A stretch of 64,000 nucleotides of DNA from Escherichia coli. Its GTDB lineage: Bacteria; Pseudomonadota; Gammaproteobacteria; Enterobacterales; Enterobacteriaceae. Made by a program: the position numbers. The stretch lies in NCBI RefSeq assembly GCF_030013595.1, contig NZ_CP122769.1, one strand, 5' to 3'. This document shows positions 12,001 to 18,000 of this stretch, one piece after another. Within the stretch, counting starts at the first letter, position 1, and each line of letters opens with the position of its first letter.

Positions 12001-15000
12001 CTCCAAAACTGCCGCCAGCATTGAGATAATTGACCGGATCGGCCGTAGGCATGTCATAGCCTTCGAGTTTTTGGTCCATTATTTTTTGAAGTAAGAATGG
12101 GTCTGATTCCATTTCGGATTTATTAACGGTAATAACGCCATCATCACCGATGGTATATTGCCTTTTAATATCTAGAGTTGACTGAAACGAAGCGTCATCG
12201 ATCAGATTCATGCCCTTCGCGGCAAGTATAATAGTGTTCTTTAATTCATCAGCGGAGATCATGCCTTCACTAATGCGCTGAGCTGATGTCCCATCCTTTG
12301 AAACCAGGAAAATTGTAGGTACCTCTCGAATTTTAAATTGATCAATAATTTGTGCATTGGGGATGTTAAAATCCTGAAAAAGGCCATTATGCAATGGCCT
12401 TCCATCCATACTGATTGGAAGAATATCTACCGAATAATAGTTCTGCATAAATTGAAGTATTTGGCTCTCTTCGTGGCAAAACTGGCAAGTACTCTGGAAA
12501 AAGAAAAATAAACCTGACTTAGTAAAGATATCTTTCATTACCGTTTGCTGATTTTTTTCAACAACAGTGCGGTGAGCATCCAGTGCCACCTTTTCCACTG
12601 GTTGCCTGCGTTTTTCAGACATCATCGGGTTTTTAAGAAAATAATCTTTTGATTTGTCAGAAAAACGCGTACTGATATCCAGCATTAACCTTTGCGCCGT
12701 GTAATAACGTGATAGATTTTCTGCGGTAGGGTTATCCATTGCCTGCGTTAACAGTCGAGGCATATTCTCTTTTAGCCATTTTGAATTTAAATCTACCTTT
12801 TCCTCTTTTGAAGGCGAGCTAGCAGCACCGGTTGGTGGCAAAACCTTTTCTTCTTCAGCTTCGCTTTTTTTAGCAGGATCGTCATACCAGAAGAAACCCT
12901 TCTTATAAGCCTGGCCTGATACAAAGGGCGTATCTTTTATTAGGGGTTGCTCAGGGCTGGCGTGGGCACCAGTAATTACCAAAGACATAAGCAAAACCAT
13001 CTTTGAAGGCGCTAATGCAATACGAGTCATAGACCGTTCTCCTTTTCTGATGCGGTTATGATGGCATACAAAAAAAAGGTTAGAGCTCGTATAGCATGGT
13101 CGTTTTTATGTTGAAAAGGACGGAAAAGGAGTGCTGACTAAGAAGATAGTCTCGGTGATGGAAAGATCATCCATCTTGCACATTGTGAAAAATCCGGTGT
13201 AACAAAAACATGGTTTTATCGAATATCTAAAAGCAAATATTGCTTTGAAAACAGGTGTATTAAGAGCTGAAAAAAATCATCACCAGTAACGCTGTTTCTA
13301 TATTTCAAAGAAGGAATAGCTAAGGATCAAAGAAGCGAACTTAGGCAAGAATATAAAATATATTAATTGAAAGCGATTAAGAAGTCGTCATGCATAGAAG
13401 GTTTTAGAGAACCTAAGTAGTTTTACGTTTTCAACAGAAAAAAAGGTGAACATTTTTTGGAACGAAGAAAGACTGTATAAAGAAAAATCAAATTATATCT
13501 TTACTTGTCAAGAGTTAATATTTAAGTTGTAACTAATATTTGATTGTAAAGCAAACAACAGAATTTGACTTAAGTCAATATTTAGATTCAGACAAGGCAA
13601 GTTTCGCGATATCTTTTTTAAATTTAATCTAATTCTTCTTGAGAATACCTCTCTATGGCTGAAGCAGTTGAAGATAATCTGCAACGTGGACAATAAGCAT
13701 CATTTGTCACTGGCACAATGTATGGGCGTTTACATTTTTCGCAGGCACCTAGTTCTTCAATTTCTTTCATAGAAGTAAGGATTTCTATTATTTTATTAAC
13801 TTCCGGTGCGCATACAAAGTATCCCAGATTATGAAGGACACTCATTATTCGGTTGAAGTCAATTTGCCGAAAACTCGCTTCCGGATTTATTGGATCAAAA
13901 CCAAAATAGTTAACTGCGACATCAATAACAGCAGAAAAAGCTCGGCGGTTATCTGTGCGTTTGCTCCAGCCCCGGATACCTTTTTTGAGTTTTGTTTTTG
14001 CACCAGGCTCAAAATCGATATTTTCAGCAACATGATTACCGTACAAAATTCGTATTGTATTTTTATTTGCCCCAAGCGACATAGTCCTTGCTGCTCGCAA
14101 TAGAGCATTAGCTTTTGTTTGATCGACCTTTGCCATATTAATAATCCTTTAACATAACTTTATTTGTTAAAGTGTTGAACACATCCTGACGGTGACTGGT
14201 GAACATAGTGTCATAACGTAATAGTTCCATCAAATCATCACTAACTTTTCCTAACCGGATGTCAGCAGACAATTCATAAGCCCAGGCAAAAACTTTCGTT
14301 TTAAGTGAAACACTCTCTTCAATATGCCCTTGTGAGAAAGCAATTGTACGTGGGAAAAGAACGACATCGTTAATTGTTTTTAACGATGAATAACCAATGT
14401 CTTTAATAGCATCAGCTGTAGTTGGTTTTAAACCAAAGAAAACACTTACAAACTCTGGTGCGAGCATTGAGATAAAGAACACCTGCATAAAGTAGTCATT
14501 CTGTATATCAACACATTTAGAACGCAACTCATGAATCTTCTTGGGATTATAGATATCCACTGTACCATTCAGAAAAGTCACTTTTTCACCGGCATCGTAA
14601 ATACCATAGTCAATATCATTTGTATCATATTCACGAATTACATTGGAATCACCGTCCAAGACCGCAGAAAAAAACCTCTCCCATGTAATTTCCTTTCCGA
14701 GTGTACGCGGAACCAAAAAACTACCTGGACGTGTTTCCACTTCAAAAGCTAAATCAGCGGCTGTACTAAATCCTTTCCCAAATAGGCGACGCTGGAGAAG
14801 AGGAGTCCCAGTTTGATATGCAGAAGATCCATGCACAGGCAATAACATTAAAAATGCACGGTAACTACGAATAAGCGAAATCTCAGTGCGGAAAAGTTTA
14901 CCGAGTAAGCTACGAGTTAAATTATCAGATTCTGACATGTGCTGATTGTCCTTGCGCCATTACAATTGTTCAAATCTTCAACATGGATTTTTTGTTAGGT

Positions 15001-18000
15001 GTTCGGTAGGGTGAAAAGTAACTTTTAGTATTTTCTTAAGGCTTGAATAAGCCTTAAATCTATCCCTTCAACCACACCGCTTACTTGTAACACTTTTTAA
15101 CCAAACTGACCAGAATTTTATCAAAATTTCTTCGCATGCTAACGAAATGTGAAGCGATTAAAAAAAAACCTAAATCCAGCCCCTCCCAACGTTGGATTAG
15201 AATAACGACGTCTTTCACTGACCGTCATAAACTGACATTTTTACTTTTCATCAACCTCATGCTTACATAGGATCACTAAACAAAAGTGTCACTATGGACA
15301 AAGTTCCATAGGGTCATTTTTTTTGGAAAAGTGGCACTAGATATATGTATAACTTTAATAGAGCAATGCACATTATCAAAAGCAATAATCCACAATGGTC
15401 ATTCCCTCAAAAGTAACTTTAGAGGGTAGCGATGGAAGTGAGGCTAAACTCGCTGTTACTGTTTCTGAAGGCCCCTCCCGAATGGGGGAAACAGCGAGTG
15501 CATTACATCTGTTCAATTCCCTCATCAAAGAGCATTCAAAAATCTTCTGTTCGTGAAAAAAAACGGAAATTTCCTCCGGTATAGTAATTTCACATCAGGA
15601 GGCGTCATGAGTAATTCGAATCTTATAAGTTCTATAGAGCTAACACGTAAAAATTTACGTGCTCAGATTGAAGGTTTGCGTGTTGAGGCTGAAGATCTCA
15701 TTACAAAATACTGGATCAAGTGGAAGGAACGAAACCACCAAGAGATTAACCTTACCCGACATAGCAAAGTTCCAAAGAGGGAGTATCTGGGTTCTTACGC
15801 ACCAAAAGTTGAGCTAATTGGTAATGCCAGAAAAGTAACGATCACTTGGCATCAGTTCAGCCCTTATAAAACAAGAGCGCCTAGTCACATGTCAAAACGG
15901 GTGCAACCAATGAAAAGTGGAAAATATTCTAAGAACTGTTTTGTAAACCATGCCAGCTGGGAATACGAAATGATTTCTGAAACGGAAGCATTGCTGGAGC
16001 CTTACAGAGAAATGCTTGAGCTCTATCATTCAGCATATATCGAACTTGGACGAAAAATCCGTCAATACTCAAAAACTAAGGTGGCACAATGACCGACGCA
16101 ATTATCACGGACAATGAGCGTATTAACATTGAACCAAAAGATGTAATGGTAAAAGGTTCAAATAAAAAGCAAGGCGTAAACGCTCAAACTTCTACTCAAC
16201 GTAGACCAGAGCACCAGGGTATGGCCAAAGTTATTATTAACCCCGGCACCCCAGATTTTAACCGGTTTTTAACTGCCAGAAATGGAGCAGTCATCAGAGG
16301 TTTTGATGATGTGAGTATCGCTATTTCCTCTCTCTTTAAAACGGTTGATGCAGTTAAACATCCTGACCTTGTTCAGGCTATTCAGGATTGGTTCAACGAG
16401 CTGCATGAAGAAAACAATAAGATGAAAGAAAATCTTGTTGCTTATATTAAGTCAATTGAGTTCGACAAGAATGACTCATTCATGTCATCAACTCAGTTTG
16501 TACCTTTCAGTTTTGAACCAGTACAACTCAACTTCAATAACCACAACACCATGAGGTTTTACAAGTACATCTTCGAGATGAACCAGCTCATGAACACAAT
16601 GTATGAGTACAACTCATTGGGTTTACTGGCTGTAAGCGACTATCCGGTTATGTCTCACAACATTATAAAGAGTATTAATTTATATGTTGAGAATGTGAAA
16701 AAGACTCTGAATGTTTCTCGCCGTAAGGATGGGCCATACAGTCCAGCAGAGTTCATCACCAAAGTAATGCAATATAAAAGTGTGCAGGCATACATTGCAG
16801 CCGAACTGTCAGGCAAACGTCGATAAGGTATGATGATGAATTTCAGGGCGCTGTATTTATGTATTAAACGGATTTTGGGGATATTCTCATCTCAGGAGAA
16901 TGATGCAACCTCTGTAATGATTGAGGATATATCAAGCCTCTCTCCTTTTGCGCAGATTCTAGGAGATCAGAAGTACACTGTTCCTGATCATCCAAATCCA
17001 GAAGTCCTGAAATTCATCGAGTATCCAACTCGTCCGACGGGCATACAGACATTTAATGAACAGTCAATCCTGTCTCTGTATCGGGAAAAGCTGCACTCAA
17101 TTTCAATGATGTTAGCTATCAGCGATAGCGACATCAGGGACGATGCATATACATTTACTAATTTAGTATTAAAGCCCTTGGTTGAATATGTTCGCTGGAT
17201 ACATCTTTTGCCAGCTTCCGAAAATCATCATCATAATGGTATTGGTGGGTTACTTTCTCACAGCCTGGAAGTGGCCATACTCTCTTTAAAAAATGCGCAT
17301 CACTCAGAACTGAGACCAATCGGATATCAAGATGAAGAAGTAGTCCGTAGAAAAGTATATCTCTATGCTGCGTTTATCTGTGGTTTAGTCCATGATGCCG
17401 GAAAGGTTTACGATCTCGATATTGTAAGCCTGAATTTAGCTAGTCCGATCATTTGGACGCCAAGCTCACAAAGTCTTCTTGACTGGGCACGTGAAAATGA
17501 CGTGGTTGAATACGAAATCCACTGGCGAAAGCGTATTCATAATCAACATAATATCTGGTCCAGCGTTTTCCTTGAGCGAATCCTAAACCCGGTATGTCTT
17601 GCATTTTTGGATCGGGTAAATAAAGAACGTGTTTATTCAAAAATGATCACCGCCCTAAACGTTTATACTGATGGGAATGACTTTTTGTCTAAATGCGTGA
17701 GGACCGCTGATTTCTATTCTACTGGTACAGACCTTAATGTTTTACGTGACCCTATCATGGGTCTGCGTTCTAATGATGCAGCAGCAAGGGCCATTAGTAC
17801 CATCAAGCACAACTTTACCAGTATCAATATCAACAATTACAATGCTAAGCCTATGCACATCATTATCGTAAATGGTGAGGTATACCTTAACGAGAACGCA
17901 TTCCTTGATTTTGTTCTCAATGATTTCGAATTACATAAATATAACTTCCCTCAGGGAGAGGCTGGTAAGACGGTATTGGTAGAATCCCTAGTTCAACGTG

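What the first reader, a model, noticed from the sequence alone, without database searches (positions are those of the whole stretch)
13031..15606. Divergent control hub: FlhC-like Cys4 regulator pair, AT-rich traF leader and candidate oriT
The minus-strand traF-traH-traG operon is preceded by a roughly 590 bp AT-rich leader containing the perfect palindrome TTGACTTAAGTCAA (13565-13578). Upstream of that are two co-transcribed genes, one with an FlhC-like CxxC-(17)-CxxC zinc ribbon. Beyond them a roughly 670 bp divergent spacer separates the regulators from the relaxase operon; it holds two AAAGTAACTTT sites, the inverted repeat CTATGGAC-CAAAG-TTCCATAG (15292-15311) and direct repeats AAAAGTGTCACTA / AAAAGTGGCACTA. 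This resembles the master-activator plus oriT arrangement of MOBH elements, with the AT-rich leader a likely target for nucleoid-protein silencing.
Basis: partly seen in the sequence, partly recalled or inferred. Interest (0 to 1): 0.55.

Follow-up and report, generated by a model that had tools for sequence, protein, structure and literature searches.

The report
IncHI2 plasmid transfer control region
This is the already studied control region of IncHI-type resistance plasmids (two activator genes, the promoter leader of a pilus-assembly operon, and the transfer origin next to mobI), here in a rare variant that has lost two of its origin repeats.

Summary
The window is an IncHI2 plasmid, 100% identical to more than 800 sequenced plasmids. 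The finding covers its Tra1 control region.

- **Regulators.** The two genes are trhR (266 aa) and trhY (170 aa). In plasmid R27 these are the known co-activators of the tra operons. HtdA counteracts them and H-NS silences them.
- **oriT.** The spacer lies next to mobI (Pfam MobI), where R27, SXT and IncC have oriT. The window lacks 90 bp, which is two perfect units. That junction was absent from about 958 IncHI2 plasmids.
- **AAAGTAACTTT sites.** They are not hub-specific. The palindrome AAAGTNACTTT occurs 51 times on an IncHI2 plasmid (0.35 expected). It clusters upstream of an orphan ParB-like gene in three plasmid lineages, so it is probably a KorB-like operator network.
- **TTGACTTAAGTCAA.** This palindrome is at chance level and is not conserved.

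Verdict: a known system, correctly read in outline, with two features misassigned.

The parts
6617..13030 (-). F operon trhF (11984-13030), trhH (10579-11994), trhG (6617-10570): F-type mating-pair-formation genes
   Evidence: ORFs. NCBIfam TraF-like TIGR02740, 2.5e-98. Identical plasmids are annotated TrhH and TraG_N.
13031..13623 (-). AT-rich leader and promoter region of the F operon (32% GC). Only the promoter-proximal ~60 bp (13031-13089) is conserved with IncHI1: RBS GGAGA, TATGCCATCATA, a T8 run and CGAGCTC.
   Evidence: Composition. Alignment with two IncHI1 plasmids. The F operon is a separate, TrhR/TrhY-dependent operon in R27 (PMC7366339).
13565..13578 (.). Perfect palindrome TTGACTTAAGTCAA, 46 bp downstream of the trhY stop. 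Probably not a functional element.
   Evidence: Single occurrence. The window has 5 perfect 14-bp palindromes. Not conserved in IncHI1.
13624..14136 (-). trhY, 170 aa: co-activator with a predicted FlhC-like fold. Its Cys4 zinc ribbon is encoded at 13681-13743.
14138..14938 (-). trhR, 266 aa: co-activator, first gene of the R operon. Fold unresolved.
   Evidence: Depositors name it 'trhR'. 77-80% identical to IncHI1. No Pfam hit. Poor model, pLDDT 56. No FlhD match.
14939..15606 (.). Divergent spacer holding the trhR promoter, oriT and the mobI (H operon) promoter. It is 90 bp shorter than in other IncHI2 plasmids.
   Evidence: Alignments. oriT lies next to the MobI-like gene in R27 and SXT (PMC10838148) and in IncC (PMC5587640).
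15115..15142 (-). Candidate trhR promoter: TTAGCA, 16-nt spacer, TG-n-TAAAAT. It sits inside a block, 15079-15150, that is nearly invariant between IncHI1 and IncHI2.
   Evidence: Consensus scan. Conservation. Function is inferred.
15266..15353 (.). Remnant of the oriT inverted-repeat array: left half-site CATAGGATCACT (15266-15277), deletion junction 15281|15282, degenerate unit AAAAGTGTCACTATGG...CCATAGGGTCA (15282-15316), half-unit AAAAGTGGCACTAG plus the conserved GATATATGTATAAC (15327-15353).
   Evidence: As single-stranded DNA the full array folds with z -8.35, the window's remnant with z -2.1.
15015..15025 (.). AAAGTAACTTT site 1, a member of the plasmid-wide palindrome family. It lies 77 bp upstream of the trhR ATG, downstream of the candidate promoter.
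   Evidence: Position conserved in IncHI1 although the flanks diverge.
15410..15420 (.). AAAGTAACTTT site 2, 197 bp upstream of the mobI ATG.
   Evidence: Conserved in IncHI1 as AAAGTTACTTT.
14574..14584 (.). AAAGTCACTTT site inside the trhR coding sequence. A further site lies at 11955-11965, near the trhF/trhH junction.
   Evidence: Both positions are conserved in IncHI1 loci L003 and L005.
15550..15606 (+). Candidate H-operon (mobI) promoter block: GTTCGTG-A8 (A run 15556-15563), -10-like TATAGT (15580-15585), RBS AGGAGG (15597-15602). No -35 consensus.
   Evidence: Nearly invariant between IncHI1 and IncHI2. The H operon is TrhR/TrhY-dependent in R27 (PMC7366339). Promoter assignment is inferred.
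15607..22066 (+). H operon: mobI (traH of R27, 15607-16092), a 245-aa ORF (16089-16826), MOBH relaxase traI (16830-19982), coupling protein traD (19982-22066).
   Evidence: Pfam MobI PF19456, 4.8e-22. PGAP names in identical plasmids: MobI(A/C), MobH family relaxase, TraD.
33217..34401 (-). Orphan ParB-family gene, 394 aa: the probable binder of the AAAGTNACTTT sites. Two sites lie 91 and 217 bp upstream of its ATG (34492-34502, 34618-34628).
   Evidence: Pfam HTH_ParB 1.5e-5. PHROG ParB-like 1.6e-21. PDB ParB 1.6e-4. Homologues in IncHI1 (2 sites upstream) and in the Klebsiella type (6 sites upstream).

Best explanation
The region is the control centre of transfer region 1 (Tra1) of an IncHI2 plasmid, homologous to the studied region of IncHI1 plasmid R27.

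1. trhR and trhY are co-transcribed from a promoter in the divergent spacer. Their products act together as the activator of the tra operons. These include the trhF-trhH-trhG operon, whose promoter sits in the last ~60 bp of the AT-rich leader, and the mobI-traI-traD operon on the other side of the spacer.
2. TrhY is a very divergent FlhC-type zinc-ribbon protein. The pair is therefore most likely the IncHI counterpart of FlhDC, SetCD and AcaCD. This step is inferred from a predicted fold.
3. The spacer also holds oriT. An array of inverted repeats with a 45-bp period, next to mobI, most likely positions the MobI accessory protein and the MOBH relaxase. This step is inferred from synteny and from co-variation of the array with its plasmid lineage.
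4. In this window two perfect repeat units (90 bp) have been lost by deletion between the direct repeats.
5. The two AAAGTAACTTT sites that bracket oriT and both promoters belong to a plasmid-wide operator family. That family is probably bound by an orphan ParB/KorB-like protein.
6. H-NS/Hha silencing of the AT-rich DNA gives the known thermoregulation. This step comes from the literature and was not tested here.
For: Identity of the window:
- It is 100% identical to IncHI2A, MOBH, MPF_F plasmids. 1376 records match and 823 are at least 99% identical.
- Depositors annotate the 266-aa gene as trhR.
- The same gene order occurs in IncHI1 and in Klebsiella IncHI1B/FIB plasmids.
- An htdA gene and H-NS and Hha genes are present on the identical backbone.

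Literature:
[quoted passage not shown] HtdA counteracts them. H-NS silences trhR at 37 C (PMC7366339).
- oriT lies directly next to the MobI-like gene in R27 and SXT (PMC10838148).
- MOBH11 relaxases need the MobI-like TraH (bioRxiv 10.1101/2025.04.21.649884).
- The IncC oriT is an AT-rich array of inverted and direct repeats over the mobI promoters (PMC5587640).

TrhY and FlhC:
- AF2 model with pLDDT 75.6.
- Foldseek AFDB50: after the protein's own family, about 30 consecutive hits are almost all FlhC proteins.
- hhalign puts C132/C135/C149/C152 on the FlhC cysteines.

oriT array:
- Full array in other IncHI2 and IncHI1 plasmids.
- The Klebsiella lineage has an analogous 44-56-bp-period array with a different half-site.
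- The full array folds with z -8.35.
- mobI matches Pfam MobI at 4.8e-22.

AAAGTNACTTT family.
Against: - No sequence method links TrhY to FlhC: Pfam, NCBIfam, a PDB HMM search, a profile search of 1.84 billion proteins, and hhalign at 3% probability. The fold evidence rests on a model built from an 11-sequence alignment.
- TrhR shows no FlhD relationship.
- No mobilisation test and no nic site are available for IncHI2, and the R27 oriT paper could not be read.
- Which conserved block holds nic is unknown.
- The inverted-repeat array could be a promoter operator rather than a relaxosome site.
- I found no convincing shared TrhR/TrhY box in the F, H, AC and Z promoters.
- The window's truncated array may mean that this copy of oriT is impaired.
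Confidence: 0.85

Rival explanations
1. The inverted-repeat array is an operator for the two divergent promoters (for TrhR/TrhY, HtdA or another regulator), and oriT lies in another conserved block of the spacer or elsewhere.
For: The array lies between the candidate trhR and mobI promoters. Other blocks (15079-15150 and 15327-15353) are conserved at least as well. The window plasmid lacks the two best units, and four clonal farm plasmids lack them too, so those units are dispensable for persistence.
Against: In IncC the oriT is exactly such a repeat array over the mobI promoters, and removing its outer repeats reduces transfer only slightly (PMC5587640). The array co-varies with the MobI and relaxase lineage. 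No similar repeats occur at the other TrhR/TrhY-dependent promoters.
Confidence: 0.2
2. The AAAGTAACTTT sites are the TrhR/TrhY (or HtdA) boxes, i.e. the activator's own binding sites.
For: Sites lie 150-250 bp upstream of the H, AC and Z operons. An htdA mutation derepresses most R27 genes (PMC7366339), which needs plasmid-wide sites.
Against: The F leader, the standard TrhR/TrhY reporter, has no site. 16 of 51 sites are inside genes and about a dozen lie within 40 bp after stop codons (my tally). The sites cluster upstream of a ParB-like gene in three lineages: 2, 2 and 6 sites. The motif is identical in plasmids whose TrhY is only 35% identical.
Confidence: 0.1
3. The 90-bp gap in the window is an assembly or sequencing artefact (collapse of tandem units), not a real plasmid variant.
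For: The exact junction is absent from about 958 IncHI2 plasmids and from 5,426 complete E. coli genomes. Tandem repeats are prone to collapse during assembly.
Against: The units are only 62-94% identical to one another, so assemblers should not merge them. Four complete plasmid records (identical length, one UK pig-faeces source) carry an almost identical 89-bp deletion. The endpoints lie in the short direct repeat AAA(A)GTG, as expected for slippage or recombination.
Confidence: 0.2
4. The resemblance of TrhY to FlhC is superficial: a helical bundle plus a generic zinc ribbon, or a modelling artefact. TrhR/TrhY would then be an unrelated kind of activator.
Confidence: 0.15

Closest known systems
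Tra1 region of IncHI1 plasmid R27 (R operon trhR-trhY, F operon trhF-trhH-trhG, oriT, H operon traH-traI-traG-traJ) with the TrhR/TrhY-HtdA circuit and H-NS/Hha thermoregulation
   Same: Same genes in the same order. TrhR is 77-80% and TrhY 84-85% identical to IncHI1 homologues. The spacer is alignable with conserved promoter blocks and the same inverted-repeat array. htdA, hns and hha are present on the backbone.
   Different: This is the IncHI2 lineage. The trhF leader is almost unalignable apart from its last 60 bp. This copy lacks two units of the array.
SetCD of SXT/R391, AcaCD of IncA/IncC and SetCD of IncT Rts1: FlhDC-type master activators of MOBH1 conjugative elements
   Same: A two-gene activator operon that switches on the tra operons of a MOBH, MPF_F element. 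One subunit has a C-terminal Cys4 site and an FlhC-type fold (PMC10838148).
   Different: SetC and AcaC are recognised by the FlhC Pfam domain; TrhY is not. The partner TrhR is much longer (266 aa) and has no detectable FlhD relationship. The antagonist is HtdA acting on the proteins, not a SetR/Acr-type repressor (PMC7366339).
oriT-mobI modules of SXT/R391 and IncA/IncC plasmids
   Same: oriT lies immediately upstream of mobI, overlaps its promoter, is AT-rich, and has multiple inverted and direct repeats. MobI is needed by the MOBH relaxase (PMC5587640; bioRxiv 10.1101/2025.04.21.649884). Here mobI matches Pfam MobI at 4.8e-22.
   Different: The repeats differ in sequence and are organised as a regular 45-bp-period array of about 3.5 units. 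The nic site is unknown. The relaxase belongs to MOBH11, whose C-terminal domain differs from the MobI-binding domain of MOBH12 (bioRxiv 10.1101/2025.04.21.649884).
FlhD4C2, the flagellar master regulator of Enterobacteria (PDB 2AVU)
   Same: Fold of the FlhC subunit, position of the four zinc-binding cysteines, and a gene pair with the FlhC-like gene second.
   Different: No significant sequence similarity. The partner is not recognisably FlhD. The targets are conjugation promoters.
KorB of IncP-1 RK2 (12 OB palindromes) and ParB of IncC plasmids (14 dispersed 22-bp parS sites)
   Same: A ParB-family HTH protein plus a short palindrome scattered over the plasmid backbone, including promoter regions and the protein's own upstream region (PMC10954446). 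The 394-aa protein is distantly similar to IncC ParB: 32% identity over 51% of its length.
   Different: A different palindrome (AAAGTNACTTT) and three to four times as many sites. The gene is orphan, with no adjacent parA, and is unrelated to the plasmid's own ParB of the parAB operon. Binding is untested.

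Membership tests
IncHI TrhR/TrhY activator pair (R operon of Tra1) | Sequence homology to the TrhR and TrhY proteins of IncHI1 plasmids | tested here: met
   TrhY is 84-85% and TrhR 77-80% identical to IncHI1 homologues. Depositors use the name 'trhR'.
IncHI TrhR/TrhY activator pair (R operon of Tra1) | Position between the trhF-trhH-trhG operon and the oriT/traH(mobI)-traI operon | tested here: met
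   Same order in the window and in IncHI2, IncHI1 and Klebsiella IncHI1B/FIB plasmids.
IncHI TrhR/TrhY activator pair (R operon of Tra1) | Both proteins required together to activate the F, H, AC and Z operons; counteracted by HtdA | not testable with these tools
   Shown for R27 (PMC7366339). An htdA gene is present on the identical IncHI2 backbone.
FlhC family (Pfam PF05280) | Match to the FlhC profile HMM | tested here: not met
   No FlhC hit in Pfam even at E<=10, NCBIfam or a PDB HMM search. 29 relatives in 1.84 billion proteins, none listed is of typical FlhC size (~190 aa) apart from P0010, already identified as a TrhY homologue (54% identity). hhalign probability 3%.
FlhC family (Pfam PF05280) | Four cysteines forming a zinc site in the C-terminal third | tested here: met
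   C132, C135, C149 and C152 are invariant or nearly so in the family. They align with the CxxC...CxxC of FlhC. Zinc binding itself is untested.
FlhC family (Pfam PF05280) | FlhC fold | tested here: met
FlhC family (Pfam PF05280) | An FlhD-type partner encoded immediately upstream, forming a hetero-oligomer | tested here: inconclusive
MOBH1 oriT-mobI module | A mobI gene followed by a MOBH relaxase and a coupling protein | tested here: met
   Pfam MobI 4.8e-22. MobH family relaxase and TraD in identical plasmids.
MOBH1 oriT-mobI module | AT-rich region with multiple inverted and direct repeats directly upstream of mobI | tested here: met
   38% GC against 46% for the window. 45-bp-period inverted-repeat array. 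Truncated in the window.
MOBH1 oriT-mobI module | Acts in cis for mobilisation; nic site cleaved by the relaxase | not testable with these tools
   Needs a mating assay and nic mapping. The nic site could not be mapped even for IncC (PMC5587640).
ParB/KorB-type dispersed operator network | A ParB-family HTH protein encoded on the plasmid | tested here: met
   394-aa protein: Pfam HTH_ParB 1.5e-5, PHROG ParB-like 1.6e-21, PDB ParB 1.6e-4.
ParB/KorB-type dispersed operator network | A short palindrome strongly over-represented and scattered over the backbone, including upstream of the protein's own gene | tested here: met
   51 sites against 0.35 expected; none in the 68-kb resistance region. 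43 sites per 100 kb in the Klebsiella lineage. 2, 2 and 6 sites upstream of the ParB-like gene in three lineages.
ParB/KorB-type dispersed operator network | The protein binds the palindrome; a ParA partner for partition | not testable with these tools
   No binding data. The gene has no adjacent parA and is unrelated to the plasmid's own ParB of the parAB operon.
H-NS/Hha-silenced tra promoter | AT-rich DNA and temperature-dependent H-NS repression | not testable with these tools
   AT-richness is met (leader 32% GC, minimum 26%). H-NS repression is published for the trhR promoter of R27 (PMC7366339), and the paper read here does not report it for the trhF leader.

The most novel reading that the evidence does not exclude
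IncHI-family plasmids (IncHI1, IncHI2 and the Klebsiella IncHI1B/FIB type) carry an undescribed backbone-wide network. About 50 AAAGTNACTTT operators would be bound by an orphan KorB-like ParB protein. Two operators bracket oriT and the divergent trhR and mobI promoters. The transfer hub would thus be wired into a plasmid-wide ParB-type silencing or organising system. This could contribute to the plasmid-wide expression changes seen in R27 htdA mutants. In addition, TrhR/TrhY would be the missing, highly divergent FlhDC-type activator, so that all MOBH1 elements share one kind of master switch.
Probability: 0.4. Interest if true: 0.6.

Novelty: already known. Interest (0 to 1): 0.3.

Why it matters
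IncHI2 plasmids are major carriers of mcr-1 and of multidrug resistance, so their transfer switch is a practical target.

- **The hub itself** is known from R27, and confirming it adds little.
- **TrhY and FlhC.** A fold-level link would place the 'novel' IncHI circuit in the same class as SetCD and AcaCD. It would also point to concrete experiments: cysteine mutants and complex modelling.
- **The 90-bp deletion.** A natural loss of the two best oriT repeat units is a ready-made test of what those repeats do.
- **The AAAGTNACTTT network.** With its ParB-like candidate binder, it is a testable lead to a global control or organisation layer of these 200-300-kb plasmids. The papers I could search do not mention it.

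Tried and rejected
- **Sequence searches for TrhY and TrhR.** Pfam, NCBIfam, a PDB HMM search and PHROGs gave no informative family.
- **Exhaustive profile search with TrhY.** Against 1.84 billion proteins it returned only 29 hits, mostly fragments and none listed is of typical FlhC size (~190 aa) apart from P0010, already identified as a TrhY homologue.
- **hhalign.** TrhY against FlhC and TrhR against FlhD gave collinear but insignificant alignments.
- **A shared TrhR/TrhY box.** In the F, H, AC and Z promoters I saw only an A/T7-8 tract next to CGARC/GCTCG, at inconsistent spacing. I do not claim a box.
- **TTGACTTAAGTCAA as a regulatory site.** Rejected: chance frequency and no conservation.
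- **Half-site hypothesis for AAAGTRAC.** This 8-mer is shared with the oriT repeat arms, but half-sites outside the palindromes are not enriched.
- **The plasmid's own ParB as binder.** ParB of the parAB operon is unrelated to the 394-aa protein, and the 11 kb between plasmid sites 8395 and 19564, which contain parA and its upstream region, hold no site.
- **Rfam.** Nothing relevant in the region.
- **Papers that could not be read.** The primary R27 papers on Tra1/oriT and on H-NS/Hha were not held.
- **Literature searches.** Searches for the motif, and for TrhY together with FlhC, found nothing relevant.

Full report
**What the window is.** The 2.6-kb region is 100% identical to hundreds of plasmids typed IncHI2A, MOBH and MPF_F from E. 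coli, Salmonella and Enterobacter. 1376 records match and 823 are at least 99% identical. In those records the flanking genes are annotated as TraG_N protein, TrhH, a thioredoxin-family TraF-like protein, two 'hypothetical' proteins (one deposited as 'trhR'), MobI(A/C), a MobH family relaxase and TraD. The window is therefore transfer region 1 (Tra1) of an IncHI2 plasmid.

**Check of the observation.**
- The leader 13031-13623 is 593 bp at 32% GC, with a minimum of 26%. The window as a whole is 46% GC.
- The 266-aa and 170-aa genes are 1 bp apart.
- The 170-aa protein has CxxC-x13-CxxC.
- The spacer 14939-15606 is 668 bp at 38% GC.
- The inverted repeat at 15292-15311 is CTATGGA/TCCATAG around a 6-nt loop.
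- The 14-bp palindrome TTGACTTAAGTCAA is real. But the window has five perfect 14-bp palindromes, the number chance predicts, and this one is not conserved in IncHI1 plasmids.

**The regulator pair.**
- The two proteins are TrhR and TrhY. They are 77-80% and 84-85% identical to the proteins at the same position in IncHI1 plasmids. They are 28% and 37% identical to those of the Klebsiella IncHI1B/FIB lineage.
- For R27 it is published that TrhR and TrhY are both needed to activate the F, H, AC and Z tra operons. HtdA counteracts them, the R operon (trhR-trhY) is separate from the F operon (trhF-trhH-trhG), and H-NS silences trhR at 37 C (PMC7366339).
- htdA, hns and hha are present on the identical IncHI2 backbone.

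**Is TrhY FlhC-like?**
- By sequence, no. Pfam, NCBIfam and a profile search of all PDB sequences find nothing.
- A profile search of 1.84 billion proteins finds 29 relatives, mostly fragments.
- hhalign against an FlhC alignment gives a collinear full-length alignment but only 3% probability. It does put the four cysteines on those of FlhC.
- In Foldseek against AFDB50, the hits directly after the protein's own family are about 30 consecutive entries that are almost all FlhC proteins.
No paper in the searchable library mentions TrhY together with FlhC.
- TrhR remains unresolved. It has no Pfam hit, a poor model and no FlhD match.
- In the related elements SXT, IncC and Rts1 the master activator is an FlhC/FlhD-type pair (PMC10838148). 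TrhR/TrhY is therefore most simply the divergent IncHI version of that switch.

**The spacer and oriT.**
- mobI matches Pfam MobI at 4.8e-22.
- The oriT of R27 and SXT lies directly next to the MobI-type gene (PMC10838148). MOBH11 relaxases need the MobI-like TraH (bioRxiv 10.1101/2025.04.21.649884).
- The IncC oriT is a 150-bp AT-rich array of inverted and direct repeats over the mobI promoters (PMC5587640).
- Aligning the spacer with IncHI1 plasmids shows several conserved blocks:
  - a candidate trhR promoter, TTAGCA-16-TGnTAAAAT at 15142-15115 on the minus strand;
  - a 50-bp invariant stretch downstream of that promoter;
  - the repeat array;
  - AAAAGTGGCACTAGATATATGTATAAC (15327-15353);
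  - a mobI promoter block, GTTCGTG-A8-N16-TATAGT plus AGGAGG.

**The window is a deletion variant.**
- Against all other IncHI2 plasmids, including the prototype R478, the window lacks exactly 90 bp at 15281|15282.
- The missing DNA is two units of AAAAGTGACCCTATG-N9-CATAGGGTCACTT. The full array has about 3.5 such units at 44-45-bp spacing.
- As single-stranded DNA the full array folds at -40 kcal/mol (z -8.35). The window's remnant folds at -9.3 kcal/mol (z -2.1).
- A 50-bp probe across the junction matched none of about 958 IncHI2 plasmids exactly and none of 5,426 complete E. coli genomes. Four clonal UK pig-farm plasmids carry an 89-bp version.
- The Klebsiella lineage has an analogous 44-56-bp-period array with a different half-site, CATTGGTNACYTTTT. 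The architecture is conserved while the sequence changes with the MobI and relaxase lineage. That is what binding sites of a cognate relaxosome protein would do.
- That the array is the MobI/TraI docking part of oriT is an inference. The nic site is unknown.

**The AAAGTAACTTT sites.**
- They are not peculiar to the spacer. AAAGTNACTTT occurs 21 times in the window.
- It occurs 51 times on a complete 264,914-bp IncHI2 plasmid, where 0.35 are expected. The next most frequent palindrome of the same form occurs 8 times. There is no site in the 68-kb resistance region.
- By my tally against the annotation tables, about 30 sites are intergenic, 5 sit on gene boundaries and 16 are inside genes.
- The four sites in and around the finding (11955, 14574, 15015, 15410) are at the same positions in IncHI1 plasmids, although their flanks diverge.
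- The Klebsiella lineage has 43 sites in 100 kb.
- Half-sites alone are not enriched.

**Probable binder of the palindrome.**
- In the window, two sites lie 91 and 217 bp upstream of a 394-aa gene (33217-34401, minus strand).
- That gene is a ParB-family protein: Pfam HTH_ParB 1.5e-5, PHROG ParB-like 1.6e-21, PDB ParB 1.6e-4.
- Its IncHI1 homologue also has two sites just upstream. Its Klebsiella homologue, 35% identical, has six sites within 750 bp upstream.
- The protein is distantly similar to the ParB of IncC plasmids. IncC ParB binds 14 dispersed parS palindromes and has a KorB domain (PMC10954446).
- It is unrelated to the ParB of the plasmid's own parAB operon.
- The best reading is a KorB-like operator network, with two operators bracketing oriT and both divergent promoters. 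Binding is untested. I found no description of this motif in the library.

**The trhF leader.**
- Only its last 60 bp are conserved with IncHI1: RBS, TATGCCATCATA, a T8 run and CGAGCTC. This is where the F promoter should be.
- The rest is AT-rich and fast-evolving. That fits H-NS-bound DNA, but the point is not tested here. The published H-NS target is the trhR promoter (PMC7366339).
- No known RNA family lies in the region.

**Verdict.** The finding is the known IncHI Tra1 control region, read correctly in outline. What stage 2 adds:
- fold-level support for the FlhC link;
- the repeat array and its rare 90-bp deletion;
- reassignment of the AAAGTAACTTT sites to a plasmid-wide family, probably bound by a ParB-like protein.

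Noticed in passing
window sites 485, 2049, 2950, 5043, 11955, 14574, 15015, 15410, 18833, 20271, 22001, 26903, 34492, 34618, 43741, 45948, 48679, 53728, 57940, 62108, 63143; gene 33217-34401(-): The palindrome AAAGTNACTTT (extended form aAAAGTwACTTTt) occurs 21 times in the window and 51 times on a whole IncHI2 plasmid, where 0.35 are expected. It is absent from the resistance region. It clusters upstream of an orphan ParB-like gene in the IncHI2, IncHI1 and Klebsiella IncHI1B/FIB lineages. Probably a KorB-like operator network; not found in the searchable literature.
   Followed up: partly
window 15281|15282: A 90-bp deletion removes two perfect units of the oriT inverted-repeat array, relative to R478 and to every other IncHI2 plasmid aligned or listed here. 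The exact junction is absent from about 958 IncHI2 plasmids. Four clonal UK pig-farm plasmids have an 89-bp version.
   Followed up: yes
window about 27200-29800: An IS66-family element (ORFs of 141, 116 and 537 aa, resembling the ISEc23 transposase set) is inserted relative to plasmid pSE08-00436-1. This shifts the downstream coordinates by about 2.5 kb.
   Followed up: no
window 13031-13089 and 15550-15586; L009:3150-3290 and L009:21482-21560: The promoter-proximal regions of the four TrhR/TrhY-dependent operons (F, H, AC, Z) each carry an A7-8 or T7-8 tract next to CGARC/GCTCG. Spacing and orientation are inconsistent, so no box is claimed.
   Followed up: partly
window 13230-13246: Inverted repeat AAAGCAA-ATA-TTGCTTT in the trhF leader, about 200 bp upstream of the trhF ATG. 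Not conserved in IncHI1.
   Followed up: no
window 14348-14530 (TrhR residues 137-197): The best-modelled helical part of TrhR aligns collinearly with FlhD residues 5-68 (ELxxxxxDIxxxY..., F-x-L-G, N-x-x-V-x-x-x-R). The hhalign probability is below 1%, so this is only a hint that TrhR may contain an FlhD-like core.
   Followed up: partly
L014:24500-30100 (Klebsiella plasmid NZ_CP083044.1): The related Klebsiella IncHI1B/FIB plasmid carries Cas6/Cse3- and Csf2-annotated genes plus a helicase gene, which looks like a plasmid-borne type IV CRISPR-Cas locus. One AAAGTNACTTT site lies inside it.
   Followed up: no
whole IncHI2 plasmid NZ_CP020493.1 (L007-L012): The E. coli Chi octamer GCTGGTGG is among the most over-represented 8-mers on the plasmid: 40 observed (both strands) against 23 expected from a Markov model.
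   Followed up: no
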